Positions 28,409-35,405 of a DNA stretch of 59,405 nt are shown piece by piece. The notes below the pieces were generated by a model. It made no database searches and was not told where the DNA came from. It saw nothing but the letters and a program-made list of their open reading frames with translations. The stretch comes from a virus. Lineage: Duplodnaviria; Caudoviricetes. Position numbers and translations under genes: made by a program. The stretch lies in IMG/VR virus record IMGVR_UViG_3300025528_000008, positions 1 through 59,405 of that record. One strand, written 5' to 3'. How positions within the stretch are numbered: position 1 is the first letter of the stretch; each line of letters opens with the position of its first letter.

Positions 28409-28818
28409 TCCGCGCCCACATCCAAGAAGAACCCGCCACCGACTCCATCGACATCACCATCATCAGGACCCACACCACCCTCGACCAGGACACCGAAAGA
28501 TGGGTCCTCCACTTCACACACTCCGACCCTGCCTCCGCCTTCTGGGATCCCATCCCCGACGACGGACGGCAACCAAAACCAACCCTCCGCCTCACCAACG
28601 AGACCGCTCTCGCCCTGCTGGAAGCCCTGGCCCGCCACTACCACGGCACCGAGAACACCCGCACCCTCCGCAAGGACTACGAAGCCGAACGCCGACGCGT
28701 CGACCAGCTCACCGCTGCTCTCGCCGGCGTCGCCCAGACACTCGCCGAGCAGCATCGCTCGCAGCGTCGCGAGGCCGAGCGGGCGGTGAACACGCACCTG
28801 GAGGCGGCACAGCCGTGA
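28405..28818 (+). CDS. hypothetical protein
   Basis: coupled; LRKDYEAERRRVDQL. Confidence 0.6.
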   Translation: MIRAHIQEEPATDSIDITIIRTHTTLDQDTERWVLHFTHSDPASAFWDPIPDDGRQPKPTLRLTNETALALLEALARHYHGTENTRTLRKDYEAERRRVDQLTAALAGVAQTLAEQHRSQRREAERAVNTHLEAAQP

Positions 28819-29129
28819 ACGGCTGGCCCAAAACCCTCGAAGCCCTCCTCGCCGCGGTCAGAGAGCTGGAACAGGCCCAGGCCGCCGCGGTGGAGAAGTT
28901 CACCCCTTGGACTCCGCATTCACCAGGAAGCATCAGCGGCTTCCTCGGATGGATCCCAGACAGAGACCGCACCAGATTCGGTGGCACCGGTCTCATCCGA
29001 CCAGGTCCACATGGCTCGGAACCCGACCTCAGTAACCTGACCCTCCACCAGGCGCGGGCAGAGGTCACTGACATCATCGCCAAGGCCCGGGAAGAGCAGC
29101 CCCTGCCAAGCCTGGTGACAGCGCGATGA
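28815..29129 (+). CDS. hypothetical protein
   Basis: GGAGG RBS, coupled. Confidence 0.5.
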   Translation: MNGWPKTLEALLAAVRELEQAQAAAVEKFTPWTPHSPGSISGFLGWIPDRDRTRFGGTGLIRPGPHGSEPDLSNLTLHQARAEVTDIIAKAREEQPLPSLVTAR

Positions 29130-29323
29130 GGATCGCCATCCACCTGTTCGGCCGCGAGGTCGCAGCTATCGAGCTCACCACCACCGTCGCCCAACCGGAC
29201 GACGAACCGGAGCCAGGTCCGCCGTTCGGGTTCTCCGGCGCCGCCGGCCTGCACACCGACCTCGCCGAGGACACCTCGACAGAAGACGCCCACACCCAGG
29301 CCCGCCCACGCAGGTCCTGGTGA
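29126..29323 (+). CDS. small hypothetical protein
   Basis: MRIAIHLFGREV..PPFGF. Confidence 0.5.
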   Translation: MRIAIHLFGREVAAIELTTTVAQPDDEPEPGPPFGFSGAAGLHTDLAEDTSTEDAHTQARPRRSW

Positions 29324-29334
29324 CCATCCACTTC

Positions 29335-29421
29335 CAAGCAGCCTGCGGCTAGCTACCGCAGGTCAGGGAGCCCTGGCGACCCCCGAGACGCCAGGGCTCC
29401 CGCTCATCTCGGGGAGACCAC
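29335..29421 (+). promoter_or_regulatory. two-hairpin/pseudoknot 5' leader of tnpB
   Basis: 7-bp and 13-bp stems; loop CCCCGAGA complementary to TCTCGGGG overlapping the RBS; homologous element at 33630. Confidence 0.65.
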
Positions 29422-30732
29422 GTGTCTGAGCAAACCAGATTCCACGCCTTCCGGTACACCCTCGCCCCAACCCCCTCCCAGGAAGCCGCGTTCTTCCGCT
29501 ACGCCGGCGCTGCACTCTGGGCGTACAACCACGCCATCGGGGTGAAGAAAGCAGCACACCAAGAGTGGCGCACCCAGGTTGACGCCCTCGTCGCCTCCGG
29601 AATCCCAGAGGAACAGGCCCGCAAACAAGTCAAGGTCAAGATCCCCAACAGCTTCGAGATAGGGAAGAACTTCAACCGGATCAAGGGAGACTCCCGCGAA
29701 GGCATCGACGGGATCTGCCCGTGGTGGCACGAAGTCAACAGGTACTGCTTCAAGTCCGCGTTCGCCGATGCGGACCAGGCGTGGAAGAACTGGCTGGCCT
29801 CCCTCAAGGGCACCCGCAAGGGCCGCAAGGTCGGCTACCCCCGCTTCAAGTCCAAGCGCCACAGCCGCAGGTCGTTCCGTCTCTACGAAGGCATCCGCCC
29901 AGTCGGCTACCGGCGTCTCCGTCTCCCCAGCTTGGGAGAGATCCGCATCCACGGCACCACCAAACCCTTGGTGAAGCTCCTCAACTCGGGCCAGGCAACC
30001 ATCAAAGCGGTCACGGTATCTCAAGGTGGCCACCGCTGGTACGCCTCCGTCCTCTGCGAGGTCACCACCAACCTCCCCGACGGCCCCACCCGCCGGCAAC
30101 GCTCCCGCGGCACGATCGGCGTTGACATGGGCGTCAAGAACCTCGCCACCCTGTCCAAACCCCTCAACCCCGACGACCCCACGACCGCGATCGTCCCGAA
30201 CCCGCGGCACCTCGAAGCCACCGATCGCCGGCTCCGCAGAGCCCAACGAGCCCTCGCCCGCAAACAGAAGGGCTCCAAACGCCGCGAGAAAGCCGCCCGT
30301 CGTGTGGCCCGCCTGCACCACCAGGTCGCAGTCCGCCGCGCCACCGCCATCCACGAGCTCACCAAGCAACTCGCCACCAGCTTCGAAGCGGTCGCGATCG
30401 AGGACCTCAACGTCCAGGGCATGACCCGCACCGCCAAAGGCACCATCGACCGCCCTGGGCGGAACGTCAAAGCCAAAGCCGGCCTCAACCGCGCCATCCT
30501 CGACGCAGGCTTCGGCGAGCTCCGCCGCCAACTGGAGTACAAAACCACCTGGTACGGGTCACGGCTGCTGACGGTGGACCGCTGGATGCCATCGTCGAAG
30601 ACCTGCTCGGGCTGCGGCTGGAAGGCGCCCGAGCTGCTCTTGCAGACCCGAGTGTTCCGCTGCGGCGGTTGCGGCCTGGTCCTGGACCGGGATGTGAACG
30701 CCGCCCGCAACATCGAACGTCACGCCGCTTGA
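29422..30732 (+). CDS. tnpB: TnpB RNA-guided endonuclease, RuvC triad intact, CRISPR-adjacent
   Basis: FRYTLAPTPSQE N-terminus; GYPRFKSK; RuvC-I GVDMG, RuvC-II IEDL, RuvC-III DRDVNAARNI; CSGC..CGGC Zn finger. Confidence 0.95.
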   Translation: MSEQTRFHAFRYTLAPTPSQEAAFFRYAGAALWAYNHAIGVKKAAHQEWRTQVDALVASGIPEEQARKQVKVKIPNSFEIGKNFNRIKGDSREGIDGICPWWHEVNRYCFKSAFADADQAWKNWLASLKGTRKGRKVGYPRFKSKRHSRRSFRLYEGIRPVGYRRLRLPSLGEIRIHGTTKPLVKLLNSGQATIKAVTVSQGGHRWYASVLCEVTTNLPDGPTRRQRSRGTIGVDMGVKNLATLSKPLNPDDPTTAIVPNPRHLEATDRRLRRAQRALARKQKGSKRREKAARRVARLHHQVAVRRATAIHELTKQLATSFEAVAIEDLNVQGMTRTAKGTIDRPGRNVKAKAGLNRAILDAGFGELRRQLEYKTTWYGSRLLTVDRWMPSSKTCSGCGWKAPELLLQTRVFRCGGCGLVLDRDVNAARNIERHAA

Positions 30733-30742
30733 CCGGCGGGAC

Positions 30743-30912
30743 CGTCGCCTCTGGTAGAGGGGAGACGTTAAACGCCCGTGGAGCCCACGTAAGACCTGCC
30801 CCCTCCGGGGTGGTGGGCAGAGGGCGTTGAAGCGGGAAGACACCATCCTCTTTGGGTGGTGCCACCCCAGCAGAGTGATCTGCTGGCAGTCCGCACATTT
30901 TCGTGGAGCGGA
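30743..30912 (+). ncRNA. omegaRNA/tracrRNA-like scaffold ending in an anti-repeat
   Basis: stems AACGCCC/GGGCGTT, CTGCCC/GGGCAG, CACCATCC/GGGTGGTG, CCAGCAGA-GTGA-TCTGCTGG; 30889-30912 is an inverted copy of the CRISPR repeat. Confidence 0.7.
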
Positions 30913-30937
30913 GGGGTAAAACCGCAGGTCGTTAAGG

Positions 30938-31210
30938 GTCCGCTCCACGTGTACGTGGCTGACCCGTGTCTGAAATGTCCGATTCTGGGGTGCCGAGGGT
31001 CCGCTCCACGTGTACGTGGCTGACCCCACCCCGCAGGCTCCCCACGGAGGGGAGACCCGGTCCGCTCCACGTGTACGTGGCTGACCCCCATCTCTCTGAC
31101 TAGCGCCGCCTCGTGCTCCTGTCCGCTCCACGTGTACGTGGGTTGACCAGATATATAGCGCCTCCCGAAGGCTGCCGTCTGAGCTCGCTCCACGTGTCTG
31201 CGGTCTGACT
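30938..31210 (+). CRISPR. CRISPR mini-array, 5 repeats and 4 spacers
   Basis: GTCCGCTCCACGTGTACGTGGCTGACCC exact at 30938, 30999, 31060; variant at 31121; degenerate at 31183; four unique 33-nt spacers; CCACG/CGTGG hairpin. Confidence 0.92.
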
Positions 31211-31293
31211 GGCAACCAATAGGACGTGCCTCGCCGCCGGGCTCGCTTTCACACGCGCAGGCTCCCCGCACCACACAGGGAGGTGACCCGGGC

Positions 31294-32001
31294 ATGACCG
31301 ACCGCTACATCATCCCCTGTGCCGGCGACGGCAACCGGTGGACCGAACAAACCGGCACTCCCAAACAACTCGTCAAACTCTGCGGCGAACCCATCCTCTA
31401 CCGCACCGTCCGCCAACTCCACGAACGCGGCGCCACCGACATCCGCATCATCGTCAAAGACCTCACCGACCCACGCTTCAAAATCCCCGGCACCCGCCGC
31501 GCCACCGCCAAACTCAACCCCGACAACGGCCCCGCCGACAAGTTCTGCTCCTCCCGCCACCTGTGGAACCGCAACGGCCGCACCACCATCCTGTTCGGCG
31601 ACGTCTTCTTCACCGACCAAGCCATGGACACCATCGTCAACCCCGACGACGGCGGTGACTGGCGCGTCTACGCCCGCTTCGGCCCCTCCAACATCACCGG
31701 CTGCAGGCACCCCGAACTGTTCGGCATCACCCTCCACCCCGACCACCACACTCTCGCAGACCAGGCCATCGCCTACTGCGTCGACCTCCACCAGCGCGGC
31801 CTGCTCAAAGGCTGGTCGGGAGGCTGGCAGGTCTACGCCGCCATGTGCGCAGACACCGACCTCAAAGCCCGCGACCGCGGTCACTCCGTCACCATCGACG
31901 ACTGGACCGAAGACATGGACTGGCGAGTGGACTGGGAACGCTGGTGCTGGCACTACGCCAAAGCCGACCCCGCCGACCGGCCCTCCCGCTACATCCCATG
32001 A
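31294..32001 (+). CDS. nucleotidyltransferase (NTP-sugar pyrophosphorylase/LicC-like fold)
   Basis: IIPCAGDGNRW..PKQLVKLCGEPILYRTVRQL; ILFGDVFF. Confidence 0.75.
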   Translation: MTDRYIIPCAGDGNRWTEQTGTPKQLVKLCGEPILYRTVRQLHERGATDIRIIVKDLTDPRFKIPGTRRATAKLNPDNGPADKFCSSRHLWNRNGRTTILFGDVFFTDQAMDTIVNPDDGGDWRVYARFGPSNITGCRHPELFGITLHPDHHTLADQAIAYCVDLHQRGLLKGWSGGWQVYAAMCADTDLKARDRGHSVTIDDWTEDMDWRVDWERWCWHYAKADPADRPSRYIP

Positions 32002-32615
32002 CCCGCATCCACGCACCGGTCGCAGAGGTCTTCACCCACCTGCCAGCCATCCACACCGAAACCGGAATCCCCCCACGAGGCGTCGCCCACGTCGGAGCCC
32101 ACACCGGCCAGGAAGTCCCCGCCTACCGCAGAACCGGCTACCACCCGATCCTTCTCATCGAACCCAACCCCTACCTCATCCCCACACTCCAAACCATCGA
32201 CGACGTCGAGGTCGTCCACGCAGCCGCCGGCACCCACAACGGCACCACCACCCTCCACATCACCGGCTGGGACCAACTGTCCTCCACCCTCACACCCCGC
32301 CCCCTCCTCAACCGGTACAAGGTCACCGAACACATCAACGTGCCCGCCGTCCGCCTAGACACCCTGCTGGACGAACGCCACACCACCCTCGTCATCGACA
32401 CCCAAGGCACCGAACTCGACGTCCTCAAAGGCGCAGACCTGACCGGCGTCCACCTCGCCGTCATCGAATGCTGCACAACCCCCCGCTACGAAGGCGCAGC
32501 AACCACCGACGACATCGTCGACTACATGCACACCGCAGGATTCACACTCCACTCACAGTGGCGACACGGCGCGGTCTCCGACGTGGTCTTCACCCGCCAC
32601 CAGCCAACCCACTGA
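31998..32615 (+). CDS. FkbM family methyltransferase
   Basis: HVGAHTGQE, IEPNP, VRLDTLL, IDTQGTELDVLKG. Confidence 0.85.
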   Translation: MTRIHAPVAEVFTHLPAIHTETGIPPRGVAHVGAHTGQEVPAYRRTGYHPILLIEPNPYLIPTLQTIDDVEVVHAAAGTHNGTTTLHITGWDQLSSTLTPRPLLNRYKVTEHINVPAVRLDTLLDERHTTLVIDTQGTELDVLKGADLTGVHLAVIECCTTPRYEGAATTDDIVDYMHTAGFTLHSQWRHGAVSDVVFTRHQPTH

Positions 32616-32631
32616 ACACCCGGGGGGATGC

Positions 32632-33033
32632 ATGGCTGTACAGCACTGGAAGCACGGGTGGATCCCACTCACCCCTCAGGCCATGCGGCAGAAGAATCAC
32701 GGCTACAAACCCGGCCCCGACTCCAAGATCACCAAGACGGCAGAGCAGGCCATCCGAGAAAAAACCGCCGCCGCCAAAACCCGCCGCTCTGGACGCCGAG
32801 GAACCACCCCCACCGGCGGAGGCAAAGGAGGCACAGGCGGCAACCGCGGCACCTCCCAAACCCCAAGCCCCGACAACGACATCAAGGCAGCAGCCGCAGC
32901 GATCCGCCCCGGCGCCCCCGCACGCGCCGTCAACCTCCTCACCCGCGCGATGAACAACACCAAGGACCCGCGGGAGAAACGAGCGGTCAAGAAGCGCCGC
33001 GACGAACTCGCTCGCCGCATCATGGGCCGCTAA
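32632..33033 (+). CDS. basic hypothetical protein
   Basis: WKHGWIPL start; Lys/Arg-rich. Confidence 0.55.
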   Translation: MAVQHWKHGWIPLTPQAMRQKNHGYKPGPDSKITKTAEQAIREKTAAAKTRRSGRRGTTPTGGGKGGTGGNRGTSQTPSPDNDIKAAAAAIRPGAPARAVNLLTRAMNNTKDPREKRAVKKRRDELARRIMGR

Positions 33034-33072
33034 CCCAGCATCTCCCCACCAGCTCAAAGGAGATGACCACCC

Positions 33073-33300
33073 ATGGCCGACACCACCCCCGGCGACCGCA
33101 ACGCACTCGAACGCTACTGGAAGTACGGCGAAGGCGCGATCAAGATCCGCTGGGGCACCGACGGAGACTGGACCCGCTGCCACCGCCACCTCATCAAGCA
33201 CGTCGGAGACACCCGAGCCCGCCGCATCTGCGCACAGTGGCACTTCGAGATGAACGGGTTCTGGCCCGGGGACAGACGCAACAAGCCCGGCAAGGACTGA
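33073..33300 (+). CDS. small actinophage protein
   Basis: LERYW..GEGAIKIRWGTDGDWTRC..CAQWH. Confidence 0.65.
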   Translation: MADTTPGDRNALERYWKYGEGAIKIRWGTDGDWTRCHRHLIKHVGDTRARRICAQWHFEMNGFWPGDRRNKPGKD

Positions 33301-33306
33301 CCTGCC

Positions 33307-33624
33307 ATGCCTCGAGGCGCTCGGTCCAACCGCGTCACACCACTCCCCAAGGGGTGGAAGAAGACCAGGCAACGCATCCTCAAACGCGACAACCACACCT
33401 GCCAATGGCCCATGCCAGGAGGCGGGATCTGCGGCGCCTACGCCTACCGCGTCGACCACAAGAGCCCCGCACACCTCAACGGCAGCGACGACGACGACAA
33501 CCTGTGGACCTTGTGCGACACCCACACCCGCTACAAGGACGCCTCCGAAGGAGGCCGAGCAGCAGCAGCGAAGCGGATCCCCCGCCGCCGGCCACCAGAA
33601 CCACACCCCGGCCTGATCCGCTGA
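33307..33624 (+). CDS. terminase-associated HNH endonuclease
   Basis: WKKTRQRILKRDNHTCQ..VDH..DDDNLWTLC..H..K; upstream of the packaging genes. Confidence 0.8.
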   Translation: MPRGARSNRVTPLPKGWKKTRQRILKRDNHTCQWPMPGGGICGAYAYRVDHKSPAHLNGSDDDDNLWTLCDTHTRYKDASEGGRAAAAKRIPRRRPPEPHPGLIR

Positions 33625-33629
33625 ACCCT

Positions 33630-33715
33630 CAAGCACCCGCGGCTGATCACCGCGGGTAGGAAGCCCCGATTCTCTCCCGGGAGTCGGGGCTTCCGCTTTC
33701 CCGGGAGCCACACAA
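33630..33715 (+). promoter_or_regulatory. second copy of the two-hairpin/pseudoknot leader
   Basis: 8-bp and 11-bp stems; loop CTCCCGGGA complementary to TCCCGGGAG covering the RBS. Confidence 0.65.
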
Positions 33716-34616
33716 GTGAACACATGCCCTGAATGCGGCACACCCCTGGTGAAGAAGAGCCGCGGACCCGCCCCGACGTATTGCTCAGCAACCTGCCGTG
33801 CCAATGCCGGATGCCGCAGGGCCAAAGCCGACGGCAGGTACGCCAACCGGGAAGCAGCCGCAGCAGCTAGGAAACGAGCCGAGCGAGAAGCAAACGCTCG
33901 ACCTTGCCTCTACTGCGGTGACCCTCTACCACCGCGTCCAGTGCGGCAAACCAGAGCGCAAACGCCTCTGGAACAACGAACGCAACCTCGCCTACCAACG
34001 CAAGTACAAAGCCGAACACGGCATCTACAGGAGCCACAGCTACACCTACGAACGCACCTGCATCCACTGCGGCAAGGTCTGGCTCGCTAAGAGCCGCACA
34101 GCCAAGTACTGCTCCAACGCATGCCAGGCCACCTACGAGCACGGACTCAACCGCAAGCCGAGGCTGAGCAGAACTGAGAGACGACGGGCAAGAGCACGCC
34201 GCATCCTCGCCGCCGCGGCCCGAGGAACACGCAGCCGCAGAACTTTCGTCGCAGGCACATGCTTCTACTGCGGCACCACAACGATCTCCACACGGAAACC
34301 AGCCAGCAGCGCCTTCTACTGTTCTCGCCGCTGTTATCAGCTCACGAAGGCCAGCGCACGCCGAGCACGTAGCAGGAACACTCACATCGACCGGCAGTCC
34401 ATCTACCAACGCGACAAATGGAACTGCCGGCTATGCGGCAAACCAGTAGCCAAAACCAAGACGCCACCGCATCCCAAGGCCCCAGTGCTCGACCACATCA
34501 TCCCCATCGCCGCCGGAGGCGAGCACACACCGGCCAACCTGCAACTGGCGCACTTCCTGTGCAACAGCATCAAGCGCCACCTCGGGGGTGGAGAACAACT
34601 GATGCTGTTCGGGTGA
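33716..34616 (+). pseudogene. Zn-finger/HNH endonuclease split by a frameshift near 33925
   Basis: N-terminal CPECG..YCSATC..CLYCG in one frame; CIHCG..RDKWNCRLCG..DHIIP..NLQLAHFLCN in the +1 frame. Confidence 0.7.
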
Positions 34617-34629
34617 CCGTCACAGACTG

Positions 34630-34720
34630 TGACGACACCTGGGGGGGACCAAGATCATTTAATCGAGGGCGACCGGAACCGTGTTGCACCTCGGGGTCGC
34701 TACGGGTTTCAGGGTCCGCG
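34630..34720. other. probable packaging (cos/pac) region
   Basis: noncoding, G7 run at 34641, between HNH and terminase; strand composition flips from C/A-rich to G/T-rich here. Confidence 0.55.
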
Positions 34721-34826
34721 AGATCCTGCGGTGATCACTGAGCGTGATAACAGTCGGTGGTGTTCGCTGGGTTGTTCTTGCTGGTGGTGGCTTGGAAAGC
34801 GTTACACCGGCTGCTAGGGTGGTCGC

Positions 34827-35405
34827 GTGGGTGTGACGAAGTGTGAGCACTGTGGCGGGGGGATGCCTCTGCTGAAGCGCCGGCACGCCCGCTACTGCAG
34901 CACTCGCTGCCGGGTTGCTGCTCACCGTGCCCGCCGGGCGCTCCCGCGTGAGATGACGTCCCGGAAGCGGTGGGTTCGCCGGGATGCTGCGAAGGCGCCG
35001 CGCACTGTCACCGGCCGGCGAGCTTCCTCGACCAACCCGGCGACTTGGTCGTCTTACCGGGAGGCTGTTAAGAGCCGTGCTGGCGTTGGCCTCGGCTATG
35101 TCCTCGCTGGTGACGGCATCGTCTGCTTGGACCTGGACCACTGCCTGAAGGGCGGGCGGCTCGCCCCTTGGGCTCAGGCGATCCTCGACCGGTGCCCGCC
35201 GACCTACATCGAGGTGTCGCCGTCGGGGGATGGCCTGCACGTGTGGGGTCTGGGCACTGTCGGCCGCGGCCGGCGGGTGCGTGTGGGCGGCGGCCAGGTC
35301 GAGGTGTATGACCGGGGCCGGTATATGACCGTCACCCGCCAGCGGTTCGGGCAGGCTCCGTCCAGGCTGGGCCGCCTGGACGATGTGATCGCCGCCTTGG
35401 TCTAG
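34827..35405 (+). CDS. stand-alone primase-polymerase (AEP-like) domain with N-terminal Zn finger
   Basis: ASSTNPATWSSY; CLDLDHC; EVSPSGDGLHVW; EVYDRGRYMTVT. Confidence 0.75.
   Translation: MGVTKCEHCGGGMPLLKRRHARYCSTRCRVAAHRARRALPREMTSRKRWVRRDAAKAPRTVTGRRASSTNPATWSSYREAVKSRAGVGLGYVLAGDGIVCLDLDHCLKGGRLAPWAQAILDRCPPTYIEVSPSGDGLHVWGLGTVGRGRRVRVGGGQVEVYDRGRYMTVTRQRFGQAPSRLGRLDDVIAALV

What the first reader, a model, noticed from the sequence alone, without database searches (positions are those of the whole stretch)
29335..33715. Same covarying two-hairpin/pseudoknot leader precedes two unrelated nucleases (tnpB and HNH)
Seen: 29335-29421 and 33630-33715 both begin CAAGCA, then stem 1 (CCTGCGG/CCGCAGG vs ACCCGCGG/CCGCGGGT, 7-nt loops CTAGCTA and CTGATCA), then stem 2 (GGGAGCCCTGGCG vs GGAAGCCCCGA). 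The stem 2 loop is complementary to the Shine-Dalgarno region (CCCCGAGA:TCTCGGGG; CTCCCGGGA:TCCCGGGAG), followed by a GTG start. Sequences differ while pairing is kept. Inference: a cis-regulatory RNA that represses translation of toxic nucleases, or the end structure of a mobile nuclease cassette in which TnpB replaced an HNH. I do not recognise it as a named motif.
Basis: partly seen in the sequence, partly recalled or inferred. Interest (0 to 1): 0.75.

Follow-up and report, generated by a model that had tools for sequence, protein, structure and literature searches.

The report
Structured RNA leader before actinophage nucleases
A roughly 90-base RNA leader of two hairpins, in which the second hairpin's loop pairs with the ribosome-binding site of the next gene, recurs in many phages of actinobacteria, mostly just upstream of HNH nuclease genes, and probably keeps their translation low.

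Summary
Both copies (29335-29421 and 33630-33715) fold as described. They are the only two in the window.

They belong to a real family. Covariance models found about 50 distinct members:
- metagenomic actinophage contigs;
- Streptomyces/Actinomycetes genomes;
- cultured cluster F mycobacteriophages (Mahavrat, Llij, Spartacus).

Rfam 15 has no matching family, and six text searches found no description.

Three helices covary: hairpin 1, hairpin 2, and a pairing between the hairpin-2 loop and the Shine-Dalgarno region. G-U pairs outnumber A-C pairs 19 to 3, which points to sense-strand RNA.

About half or more of the downstream genes are HNH endonucleases, usually at the head of the terminase-portal module. 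The rest include DNA methylases, and twice a TnpB.

Best reading: a cis-acting mRNA leader that occludes the ribosome-binding site. This is analogous, not homologous, to the RBS-sequestering hairpins of T4 homing-endonuclease genes. Repression was not tested. The linker looks too short for a classical pseudoknot on the full stem.

Side finding: the "tnpB" is Cas12n-like. It has a conserved omega-RNA scaffold that is abundant in metatranscriptome contigs, followed by a 5-repeat CRISPR-like array. The same module occurs in a Streptomyces contig.

The parts
29335..29421 (+). Leader copy 1. Hairpin 1 at 29341-29363 (loop CTAGCTA, 29349-29355). Hairpin 2 at 29366-29401. Loop segment b at 29381-29388 pairs with b' at 29407-29414, which overlaps the Shine-Dalgarno GGGGAGA. 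GTG start at 29422.
   Evidence: R1 115 bits; R2 86 bits
33630..33715 (+). Leader copy 2. Hairpin 1 at 33635-33657 (loop CTGATCA, 33643-33649). Hairpin 2 at 33659-33694. Loop segment b at 33674-33682 pairs with b' at 33699-33707, which holds the Shine-Dalgarno GGGAG. GTG start at 33716.
   Evidence: R1 112 bits; R2 102 bits
29422..30732 (+). Gene served by copy 1: a TnpB / Cas12n-like RNA-guided nuclease of 436 aa.
   Evidence: Pfam OrfB_IS605, Cas12f1-like_TNB and HTH_OrfB_IS605. Best PDB match is 9J09, E 1.1e-92, which a preprint calls Cas12n. 65% identical to the L254 protein.
30733..30893 (+). Omega-RNA / tracrRNA-like scaffold 3' of the nuclease gene.
   Evidence: Conserved with L003 and L004 up to about 30890. 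A metatranscriptome contig at 30726-30964 has depth 62, against about 3 on the flanks.
30935..31209 (+). CRISPR-like array: 5 repeats of about 28 nt, start-to-start spacing 61, 61, 61, 62, last copy degenerate.
   Evidence: A homologous 6-repeat array follows the L254 tnpB.
33307..33624 (+). Small HNH endonuclease gene ending 5 nt before copy 2.
   Evidence: PHROG 333, E 1.3e-24. GC3 supports this frame.
33716..34616 (+). Gene served by copy 2: a zinc-ribbon N-terminus (33716-34090) that continues in another frame as the HNH ORF (33798-34616).
   Evidence: DNA contigs of two other runs show no insertion or deletion here.

Best explanation
Each copy is a cis-acting leader in a polycistronic phage mRNA. 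It starts a few bases after the stop codon of the gene before it.

Structure:
- Hairpin 1 has a 7-8 bp stem and a 7-8 nt loop with a GATC or AGCT core.
- Hairpin 2 has an 11-16 bp G+C-rich stem.
- The apical loop of hairpin 2 carries an anti-Shine-Dalgarno-like stretch (b, typically UCUCCNGG).
- Segment b pairs with b', which lies 3-7 nt after hairpin 2. Segment b' is the Shine-Dalgarno sequence plus its 5' flank.

Proposed function: this third pairing hides the ribosome-binding site, so the downstream gene is translated only weakly, or only after something opens or cuts the structure. That gene is usually an HNH nuclease, and here it is also a Cas12n-like TnpB.

Shown here: the three pairings, their covariation, the family's spread and its gene association.

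Inferred: that the pairing represses translation, and what relieves it.
For: 1. The fold is real. Both copies fold far better than shuffles.

2. Homologues exist.
- R1 hits 7 of the 13 loci fetched through HNH relatives.
- R1 gives 48 matches at E<=0.01 in the 64 loci fetched by two DNA patterns.
- That makes 47 distinct elements.
- R2 adds 5 full-length members among 120 bacterial-genome loci, all Streptomyces or Actinomycetes.
- R2 also finds 3 cultured mycobacteriophages.

3. The two hairpins covary (42 sequences).
- 99.2% of cells form a standard pair.
- 14 of 18 pairs change on both sides.
- 0 of 500 shuffles reach these values; slid controls give 34-55% paired.

4. The structure is strand-specific. 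There are 19 G-U cells against 3 A-C cells.

5. The third helix covaries, and it was never part of any model or pattern.
- The longest loop/downstream complement averages 7.9 nt in cognate pairs against 4.9 nt in non-cognate pairs.
- 0 of 10,000 permutations reach the cognate mean.
- Many different b/b' sequences occur.
- The mean duplex energy is -13.5 kcal/mol, and b' holds a Shine-Dalgarno-like core in 42 of 44.

6. Position. The element is always in the sense direction, directly upstream of a start codon.

7. Precedent. RBS-sequestering RNA structures regulate I-TevI, I-TevII, I-TevIII, segB and mobE (PMC2988022, passages read).
Against: - No expression data bear on repression.
- Geometry: the linker between hairpin 2 and b' is mostly 3-7 nt (1 and 14 in two members), but it must span an 11-16 bp stem. 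From my recalled knowledge of H-type pseudoknots this is too short unless several base pairs open. The two pairings may therefore alternate rather than coexist.
- In many members b overlaps a weak apical extension of hairpin 2 (GUC[UCCC]GGC).
- In L129 and L121, b' is not the Shine-Dalgarno sequence. In L086 the start codon lies about 20 nt further on.
- Hairpin 1 and its palindromic loop have no role in this model.
- The alignments were fitted to the model, and the pattern scans constrained part of hairpin 2 and the hairpin 1 loop. Those two features are therefore partly circular.
Confidence: 0.6

Rival explanations
1. It is an intercistronic insulator acting on the RNA chain rather than on initiation. 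It would be a partial, U-tract-less terminator, a processing site (for example for RNase III on the roughly 20-bp stack of hairpin 2 plus b:b'), or both. This would set mRNA ends and stability at the border of the packaging operon.
For: - The element starts just after a stop codon.
- It is G+C-rich and very stable.
- In at least 20 of 44 elements a large terminase lies among the next three genes.
- Several members follow a T-run terminator-like site.
- An RNA-library contig of X16 ends at 33711, the 3' end of copy 2. This is only a weak hint at depth 3-5.
Against: - The consensus terminator scan finds nothing at either copy.
- No room is left for a promoter between hairpin 2 and the Shine-Dalgarno sequence.
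- An RNA-library contig runs through copy 1 (29090-29786).
- A terminator or processing role does not explain why the loop covaries with the Shine-Dalgarno flank.
Confidence: 0.2
2. It is a processive antitermination RNA in the manner of HK022 put. The two hairpins in the nascent RNA would modify RNA polymerase so that it reads through the long late operon, or the repeat array.
For: - It has a two-hairpin architecture.
- In 10 records searched whole there is usually one strong copy per genome.
- It often sits at the head of the terminase-portal-capsid operon.
- Copy 1 precedes a hairpin-rich repeat array.
Against: - The tight coupling to a start codon and the covarying Shine-Dalgarno pairing are not expected of a put-like element.
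- Some members sit inside structural operons, after capsid or terminase genes.
- The resemblance to put is recalled, not tested.
Confidence: 0.07
3. It is a DNA-level site: a protein-binding palindrome, a cruciform, or a homing or packaging (cos-proximal) signal that travels with the nuclease gene.
For: - Hairpin 1 loops hold the palindromes TGATCA or TAGCTA, or a GATC/AGCT/GCGC core, in 43 of 43 parsed loops.
- The same holds in about 15 members found without constraining the loop.
- In cluster F phages the element lies near the right genome end.
- Upstream genes are diverse, as expected for inserted cassettes.
Against: - G-U outnumbers A-C 19 to 3 in the helices, so selection acts on one strand.
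- The third helix involves the Shine-Dalgarno sequence.
- Orientation always matches the downstream gene.
- The loop palindrome is offset from the stem's symmetry axis, so hairpin 1 is not one long DNA palindrome.
Confidence: 0.08
4. It is the left end of an IS200/IS605-type transposon that carries tnpB.
For: - It lies directly upstream of tnpB in the window and in L254.
- IS200/IS605 ends carry subterminal hairpins (recalled).
Against: - The two closest TnpB relatives (59-60% identity) share a different conserved upstream end with no such hairpins.
- R1 finds no element in the 24 of 66 TnpB loci that I scanned.
- Most members precede HNH genes.
- The two tnpB-linked leaders are only 72% identical, while the L254 leader is 87-88% identical to HNH-linked ones.
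Confidence: 0.02

Closest known systems
RBS-sequestering RNA hairpins of T-even phage homing-endonuclease genes (I-TevI/II/III, segB, mobE of Aeh1)
   Same: Both are a stable RNA structure just upstream of a phage nuclease gene that pairs with its Shine-Dalgarno sequence. In T-even phages this limits translation (PMC2988022, passages of section 12 read).
   Different: - There is no sequence or structural homology.
- Here the Shine-Dalgarno sequence pairs with a hairpin loop in a pseudoknot-type topology, not with the other arm of a simple hairpin.
- A second hairpin with a palindromic loop is conserved.
- No internal late promoter was found (sigma-70 consensus only).
- The hosts are actinobacteria.
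- The motif is conserved as one family across many phages.
Loop-to-Shine-Dalgarno-region pseudoknots of IncB / IncI-alpha plasmid rep mRNAs (recalled, not looked up)
   Same: A hairpin loop pairs with a sequence next to the Shine-Dalgarno sequence of the regulated gene.
   Different: - In those plasmids the pseudoknot activates translation.
- The partner lies far downstream.
- An antisense RNA targets the loop.
- Here b' is the Shine-Dalgarno sequence itself and lies 3-7 nt after the hairpin.
HK022 put antitermination RNA (recalled)
   Same: Two adjacent hairpins in a nascent phage transcript, with few copies per genome.
   Different: Put has no link to a ribosome-binding site. I did not test for similarity beyond the Rfam scans, which gave nothing.
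Cas12n (type V-U4) and TranC systems (for the gene behind copy 1, not for the leader)
   Same: - A TnpB-sized RuvC nuclease whose best solved relative is 9J09, named Cas12n in a preprint.
- It lies next to a short CRISPR array.
- A guide-RNA scaffold is encoded at and after the 3' end of the gene.
   Different: - At 436 aa it is shorter than the 540-aa 9J09 chain.
- Its closest relatives, at 59-60% identity, look like ordinary array-less tnpB copies with their own conserved upstream end.
- No significant spacer match was found.
- Adaptation genes were not looked for.

Membership tests
Any Rfam 15 family | A covariance-model match at the family's gathering score | tested here: not met
   There were 0 matches in the whole window at gathering thresholds. 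In the E-value scan of 29000-34800 the only hit is sar RNA, at 24.1 bits against a gathering score of 43.
T4-type RBS-sequestering leader of homing-endonuclease genes | The Shine-Dalgarno sequence is base-paired in a stable RNA structure | tested here: met
   The loop/Shine-Dalgarno complement is present in 44 of 44 parsed members (5-14 nt, mean 7.9) and covaries. Segment b' holds a Shine-Dalgarno core in 42 of 44. This evidence is computational only.
T4-type RBS-sequestering leader of homing-endonuclease genes | An internal late promoter gives transcripts that lack the sequestering arm | tested here: inconclusive
   The sigma-70 consensus scan of 28800-34800 found 0 promoter-like sites. Actinophage late promoters are not covered by that scan.
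T4-type RBS-sequestering leader of homing-endonuclease genes | The downstream gene is a homing endonuclease | tested here: inconclusive
   An HNH domain is present in 24 of 47 downstream proteins by Pfam and in 20 of 39 of the pattern-found set. Homing activity was not tested, and many of these genes are the HNH next to the terminase.
Classical H-type pseudoknot | A hairpin loop pairs with the 3' tail | tested here: met
Classical H-type pseudoknot | The connecting loops are long enough for both stems to exist at once | tested here: inconclusive
   The linker is mostly 3-7 nt against a stem of 11-16 bp. By recalled stereochemical rules it is too short unless pairs open. No 3D modelling was done.
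IS200/IS605 transposon left end | It is conserved with tnpB across related elements and is matched by a right-end hairpin | tested here: not met
   L003 and L004 have a different upstream end. There was no R1 hit in the 24 of 66 TnpB loci scanned.
Cas12n / type V-U (gene behind copy 1) | A TnpB-like RuvC nuclease next to a CRISPR array, with an expressed guide scaffold | tested here: met
   - PDB 9J09, E 1.1e-92.
- Five repeats with period 61.
- The same layout occurs in L254.
- An RNA-library contig at 30726-30964 has depth 62.
Cas12n / type V-U (gene behind copy 1) | Spacers match foreign DNA, and interference activity is shown | tested here: inconclusive
   BLAST of both arrays against 50,697 phage records gave only hits with E>=1. 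Activity is not testable here.

The most novel reading that the evidence does not exclude
The leader is a portable 'safety catch' for DNA-cutting and DNA-modifying genes in actinophages, reused in front of HNH nucleases, methylases and a Cas12n-like TnpB. It is a true switch, not a fixed damper. The always-palindromic loop of hairpin 1 would let two leaders kiss, or would bind a dimeric phage factor. That event would decide whether the hairpin-2 loop holds the ribosome-binding site, possibly in a domain-swapped dimer, which would also resolve the too-short linker.
Probability: 0.15. Interest if true: 0.8.

Novelty: new variant of a known kind. Interest (0 to 1): 0.62.

Why it matters
- It adds a widespread structured RNA family to actinobacteriophage biology, where very few cis-regulatory RNAs are known. 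I found no description of it.
- It occurs in cultured Mycobacterium smegmatis phages (Llij, Mahavrat, Spartacus), so it can be tested directly at the bench.
- It suggests that phages of distant hosts solved the same problem, keeping nuclease genes quiet inside highly expressed operons, with unrelated RNA structures.
- The same leader drives a Cas12n-like TnpB with a mini-array in two loci. This may show how a transposon nuclease was wired into phage gene control as it became a CRISPR-like system.

Tried and rejected
- Megablast and blastn of the region and of single elements against 50,697 phage records gave no element hit. The one partial hit, at the left end of Streptomyces phage Xkcd426, is a hairpin-2-like stem only (R2 23.7 bits).
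- Mycobacterium phage IdentityCrisis has a related gene 1 but no visible element. I judged this by eye only.
- An exact pattern of hairpin 1 plus CAAGCA found nothing in viral contigs.
- A search for relatives of the gene after the array (31294-32001) found none. I therefore could not make a presence/absence comparison around copy 1.
- Of the 120 bacterial loci that matched the hairpin-2 pattern, 115 are hairpin-2-only matches of about 19-31 bits (many from Collinsella). I did not count them as members.
- R2 found nothing in Gordonia phages GAL1 and SweatNTears, Microbacterium phage Footloose, Rhodococcus phage MacGully or record MT837769.
- A strict HNH regular expression missed most HNH proteins (6 of 39). 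I replaced it with an HMM built from the set.
- My guess that the L111 protein is a GIY-YIG nuclease got no Pfam support.
- An upstream TGATCA that could pair with the hairpin 1 loop is present in only 5 TGATCA-loop members, and the motif is mismatched in two others. I rejected it as a general helix.
- Low or absent RNA-contig cover over both leaders in run X17 is not evidence, because depth was about 3.


Full report
**What is in the window**

The window is a whole IMG/VR virus record: 59,405 bp, linear, estimated 85% complete. G+C is about 67%, and nearly all genes lie on the + strand.

Each copy starts 5-11 nt after a stop codon and ends at a GTG start. In order, each holds:
- CAAGCA;
- hairpin 1, an 8-bp stem with a 7-nt loop (CTAGCTA or CTGATCA);
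- 1-2 nt of spacer;
- hairpin 2, an 11-13 bp stem;
- 4-5 nt of linker;
- a stretch complementary to the 3' part of the hairpin-2 loop, which overlaps the Shine-Dalgarno sequence.

The upstream stop codons end at 29323 and 33624. RNAfold gives -51.8 and -52.4 kcal/mol, with z-scores of -3.9 and -6.1. A covariance model of the pair (R1), run with filters off, finds only these two full copies in the window.

**The genes around the copies**

- Copy 1 precedes a 436-aa protein with the Pfam domains OrfB_IS605, Cas12f1-like_TNB and HTH_OrfB_IS605.
- Copy 2 follows a small HNH gene (33307-33624; PHROG 333).
- Copy 2 precedes an ORF that begins with zinc-ribbon motifs (33716-34090). The HNH domain lies in another frame (33798-34616). 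Third-position G+C switches frame near 33860.
- Downstream come a primase-like gene, a PHROG 226 gene, large terminase, portal, protease and major head protein.

Copy 2 therefore sits at the head of the packaging and structural block.

**It is a family**

Rfam has nothing at gathering scores. At E<=5 it gives only a sub-threshold sar hit.

*Relatives found through proteins.* Relatives of the HNH protein in viral contigs gave 13 loci. R1 hit seven of them just upstream of the HNH gene, and L069 a second time before a 72-aa ORF. R1 hit none of the 24 TnpB-relative loci that I scanned, out of 66 fetched.

*Relatives found by gene-blind DNA patterns.* Two patterns (hairpin-1 loop plus the hairpin-2 base) fetched 26 and 38 loci. 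R1 gave 48 matches at E<=0.01 in them.

*Rows dropped before counting:*
- loci that are the same contigs as earlier ones (L084, L092, L108, L125, L144);
- the identical L076 and L139;
- the truncated L071;
- two reverse-strand matches.

This leaves 47 distinct elements. Three of them (L085, L096, L138) are weak or partial, and I left them out of the later structure counts.

*Bacterial genomes.* A second model (R2) was run on 120 bacterial-genome loci that match a hairpin-2 pattern. It found five full-length members: L240, L171, L228, L250 and L254, at 44-83 bits. All are from Streptomyces or other Actinomycetes. The other 115 are hairpin-2-only matches.

*Cultured phages.* BLAST had missed these. 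R2 finds the element between two HNH genes at the right genome end of three phages:
- Mahavrat, 54 bits;
- Llij, 54 bits;
- Spartacus, 53 bits.

Five other cultured phages or phage records tested had none.

*Copy number.* Ten records searched whole had one strong copy each.

**Structure evidence**

On the 42-sequence alignment:
- 99.2% of cells form standard pairs;
- 14 of 18 pairs change on both sides, including all 7 pairs of hairpin 1;
- no shuffle out of 500 reaches the observed values;
- sliding the partner by 1-3 columns drops pairing to 34-55%.

Two cautions apply. The alignment was fitted to the model, and the scan patterns fixed the purine/pyrimidine classes at the hairpin-2 base.

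G-U cells number 19 against 3 A-C cells, so the sense strand is the one under selection.

The third helix was never part of a model or a pattern, so its test is independent. For 44 elements I measured the longest Watson-Crick complement between the apical part of hairpin 2 and the 26 nt after hairpin 2:
- cognate pairs average 7.9 nt (range 5-14);
- non-cognate pairs average 4.9 nt;
- 0 of 10,000 permutations reach the cognate mean.

The partner sequences differ widely. Examples are CCCCGAGA/TCTCGGGG, TCCTCGTG/CACGAGGA, UCUCCGGGU/ACCCGGAGA and CTCCTCATGGGT/ACCCATGAGGAG. Segment b' holds a Shine-Dalgarno-like core in 42 of 44, and the mean duplex energy is -13.5 kcal/mol.

**What does not fit neatly**

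- The linker from hairpin 2 to b' is mostly 3-7 nt, yet it would have to run the length of an 11-16 bp stem. From recalled rules for H-type pseudoknots this needs several pairs to open. The two pairings may therefore alternate.
- In L129 and L121, b' is not the Shine-Dalgarno sequence. In L086 the start lies further downstream.
- Hairpin 1 loops always hold a palindrome. Of 43 parsed loops, 19 have TGATCA, 18 have TAGCTA, and 6 have only a 4-nt core. That count is biased, because the scan patterns contained those loops.
- In about 15 members found without constraining the loop, all still have a GATC, AGCT or GCGC core. These are the two window copies, six HNH-derived elements, the second copy in L143, four from bacterial genomes and two cluster F types.
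- Self-complementarity in a hairpin loop suggests loop-loop kissing or a dimeric binder. I could not test either.

**Gene association**

Of the 47 downstream proteins:
- Pfam HNH matches 24, Endonuclease_7 matches 2 and HNH_3 matches 2;
- PHROG 1035 matches 27.

Among the 39 elements found by DNA pattern, 20 carry an HNH domain by an HMM built from the set. The other 19 include Cys-rich proteins that may belong to other HNH subfamilies.

Other downstream genes are an N6_N4 methylase and a Dam methylase, a tail-tube protein, small proteins, and in bacterial genomes an HTH protein.

At least 20 of 44 elements have a large terminase (PHROG 9) among the next three genes. Upstream genes are varied: other HNH genes, major head protein, terminase, protease and tail genes. 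So some elements lie inside structural operons, as inserted accessory genes do.

**The tnpB link**

The two closest TnpB relatives (59-60% identity) share a different conserved upstream end and have no leader. L254, a Streptomyces contig, has a leader (80 bits) directly before a TnpB that is 65% identical to the window's. The two tnpB-linked leaders are only 72% identical to each other, while the L254 leader is 87-88% identical to HNH-linked leaders. The leader therefore behaves as a reusable module, not as part of a transposon.

**Mechanism**

The best-supported reading is an mRNA leader that hides the ribosome-binding site of an accessory, mostly nuclease, gene embedded in a strongly expressed operon. 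The documented analogue is the set of RBS-sequestering structures of T-even homing-endonuclease genes (PMC2988022, passages read). It is an analogue, not a relative.

A consensus scan found no terminator or sigma-70 promoter at either copy.

Metatranscriptome contigs are too thin (depth 3-5) to say anything about the leaders. One contig runs through copy 1 and another ends at the 3' end of copy 2.

Six text searches and passages of the 224-motif paper (PMC5737381) gave no prior description of this motif.

**Side finding**

The 160 nt after the tnpB stop are conserved with L003 and L004, as expected of an omega-RNA scaffold. In two RNA libraries this stretch stands far above its flanks: the contig at 30726-30964 has depth 62, against about 3. 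DNA carry-over in those libraries cannot be excluded.

About 45 nt further on lies an array of five 28-nt repeats with a period of 61, 61, 61 and 62 nt. The last repeat is degenerate. L254 has a homologous six-repeat array in the same place. L003 and L004 have none.

The best solved relative of the protein is 9J09 (E 1.1e-92), which a preprint names Cas12n. LaTranC chains match weakly.

By eye, in the sequences:
- the 3' end of the repeat resembles the 3' end of the scaffold;
- a stretch just after the scaffold is complementary to the 5' part of the repeat.

Spacer searches gave nothing significant.

This looks like a phage-borne Cas12n-like or TnpB-derived type V system. That kind is known (PMC10691335, passages read). 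Here it is placed under the nuclease leader.

Noticed in passing
window 30733-31209; L254 6611-7169: The 'tnpB' carries a conserved omega-RNA scaffold and then a CRISPR-like array of 5 repeats (about 28 nt, period 61). The same module, with a 65% identical protein and 6 homologous repeats, is in a Streptomyces contig. The scaffold region is about 15-20 times deeper than its flanks in two metatranscriptome contig sets. The best PDB relative is 9J09, named Cas12n in a preprint. No significant spacer match was found.
   Followed up: partly
window 33716-34616: The HNH gene behind copy 2 is read in two frames: a zinc-ribbon start at 33716-34090 and the HNH part at 33798-34616, with the frame change near 33860-33910. 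DNA contigs from two other runs show no insertion or deletion here, so it is not an assembly error of this record. It may be a decaying gene or need a frameshift.
   Followed up: partly
L098, L103, L091, L097, L090 (8-15 nt before hairpin 1); L091, L090, L110, L254 (further upstream): Five members with a TGATCA loop also have TGATCA(T) just upstream of hairpin 1. Several members follow a hairpin with a T-run, so they may begin a transcription unit. No explanation was found; it is not general.
   Followed up: partly
L150-L264, many Collinsella contigs: Dozens of Collinsella genomes share a stretch of about 96 nt that matches the hairpin-2 pattern on both strands at 19-30 bits. It is probably an unrelated conserved hairpin or terminator.
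   Followed up: no
window 29000-35000: Near-identical DNA (87-99% of sampled words) is held by 15 DNA runs from bioreactor, soil, compost and fertiliser metagenomes dated 2017-2025; the 20 holding runs listed, RNA included, come from 14 studies in all. The phage or prophage is therefore widespread. Two of these runs may be the source sample.
   Followed up: partly
L146 1-59 (Streptomyces phage Xkcd426, left end): A hairpin-2-like stem (GGAAGCCCC...GGGGCTTCC) sits at the very start of the record, without hairpin 1 and without the loop/Shine-Dalgarno complement.
   Followed up: partly
L143 7577-7813; L096 6306-6584: Two elements precede small (79-93 aa) proteins that look alike at the N-terminus in the listing (read by eye). 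Their family was not identified.
   Followed up: no
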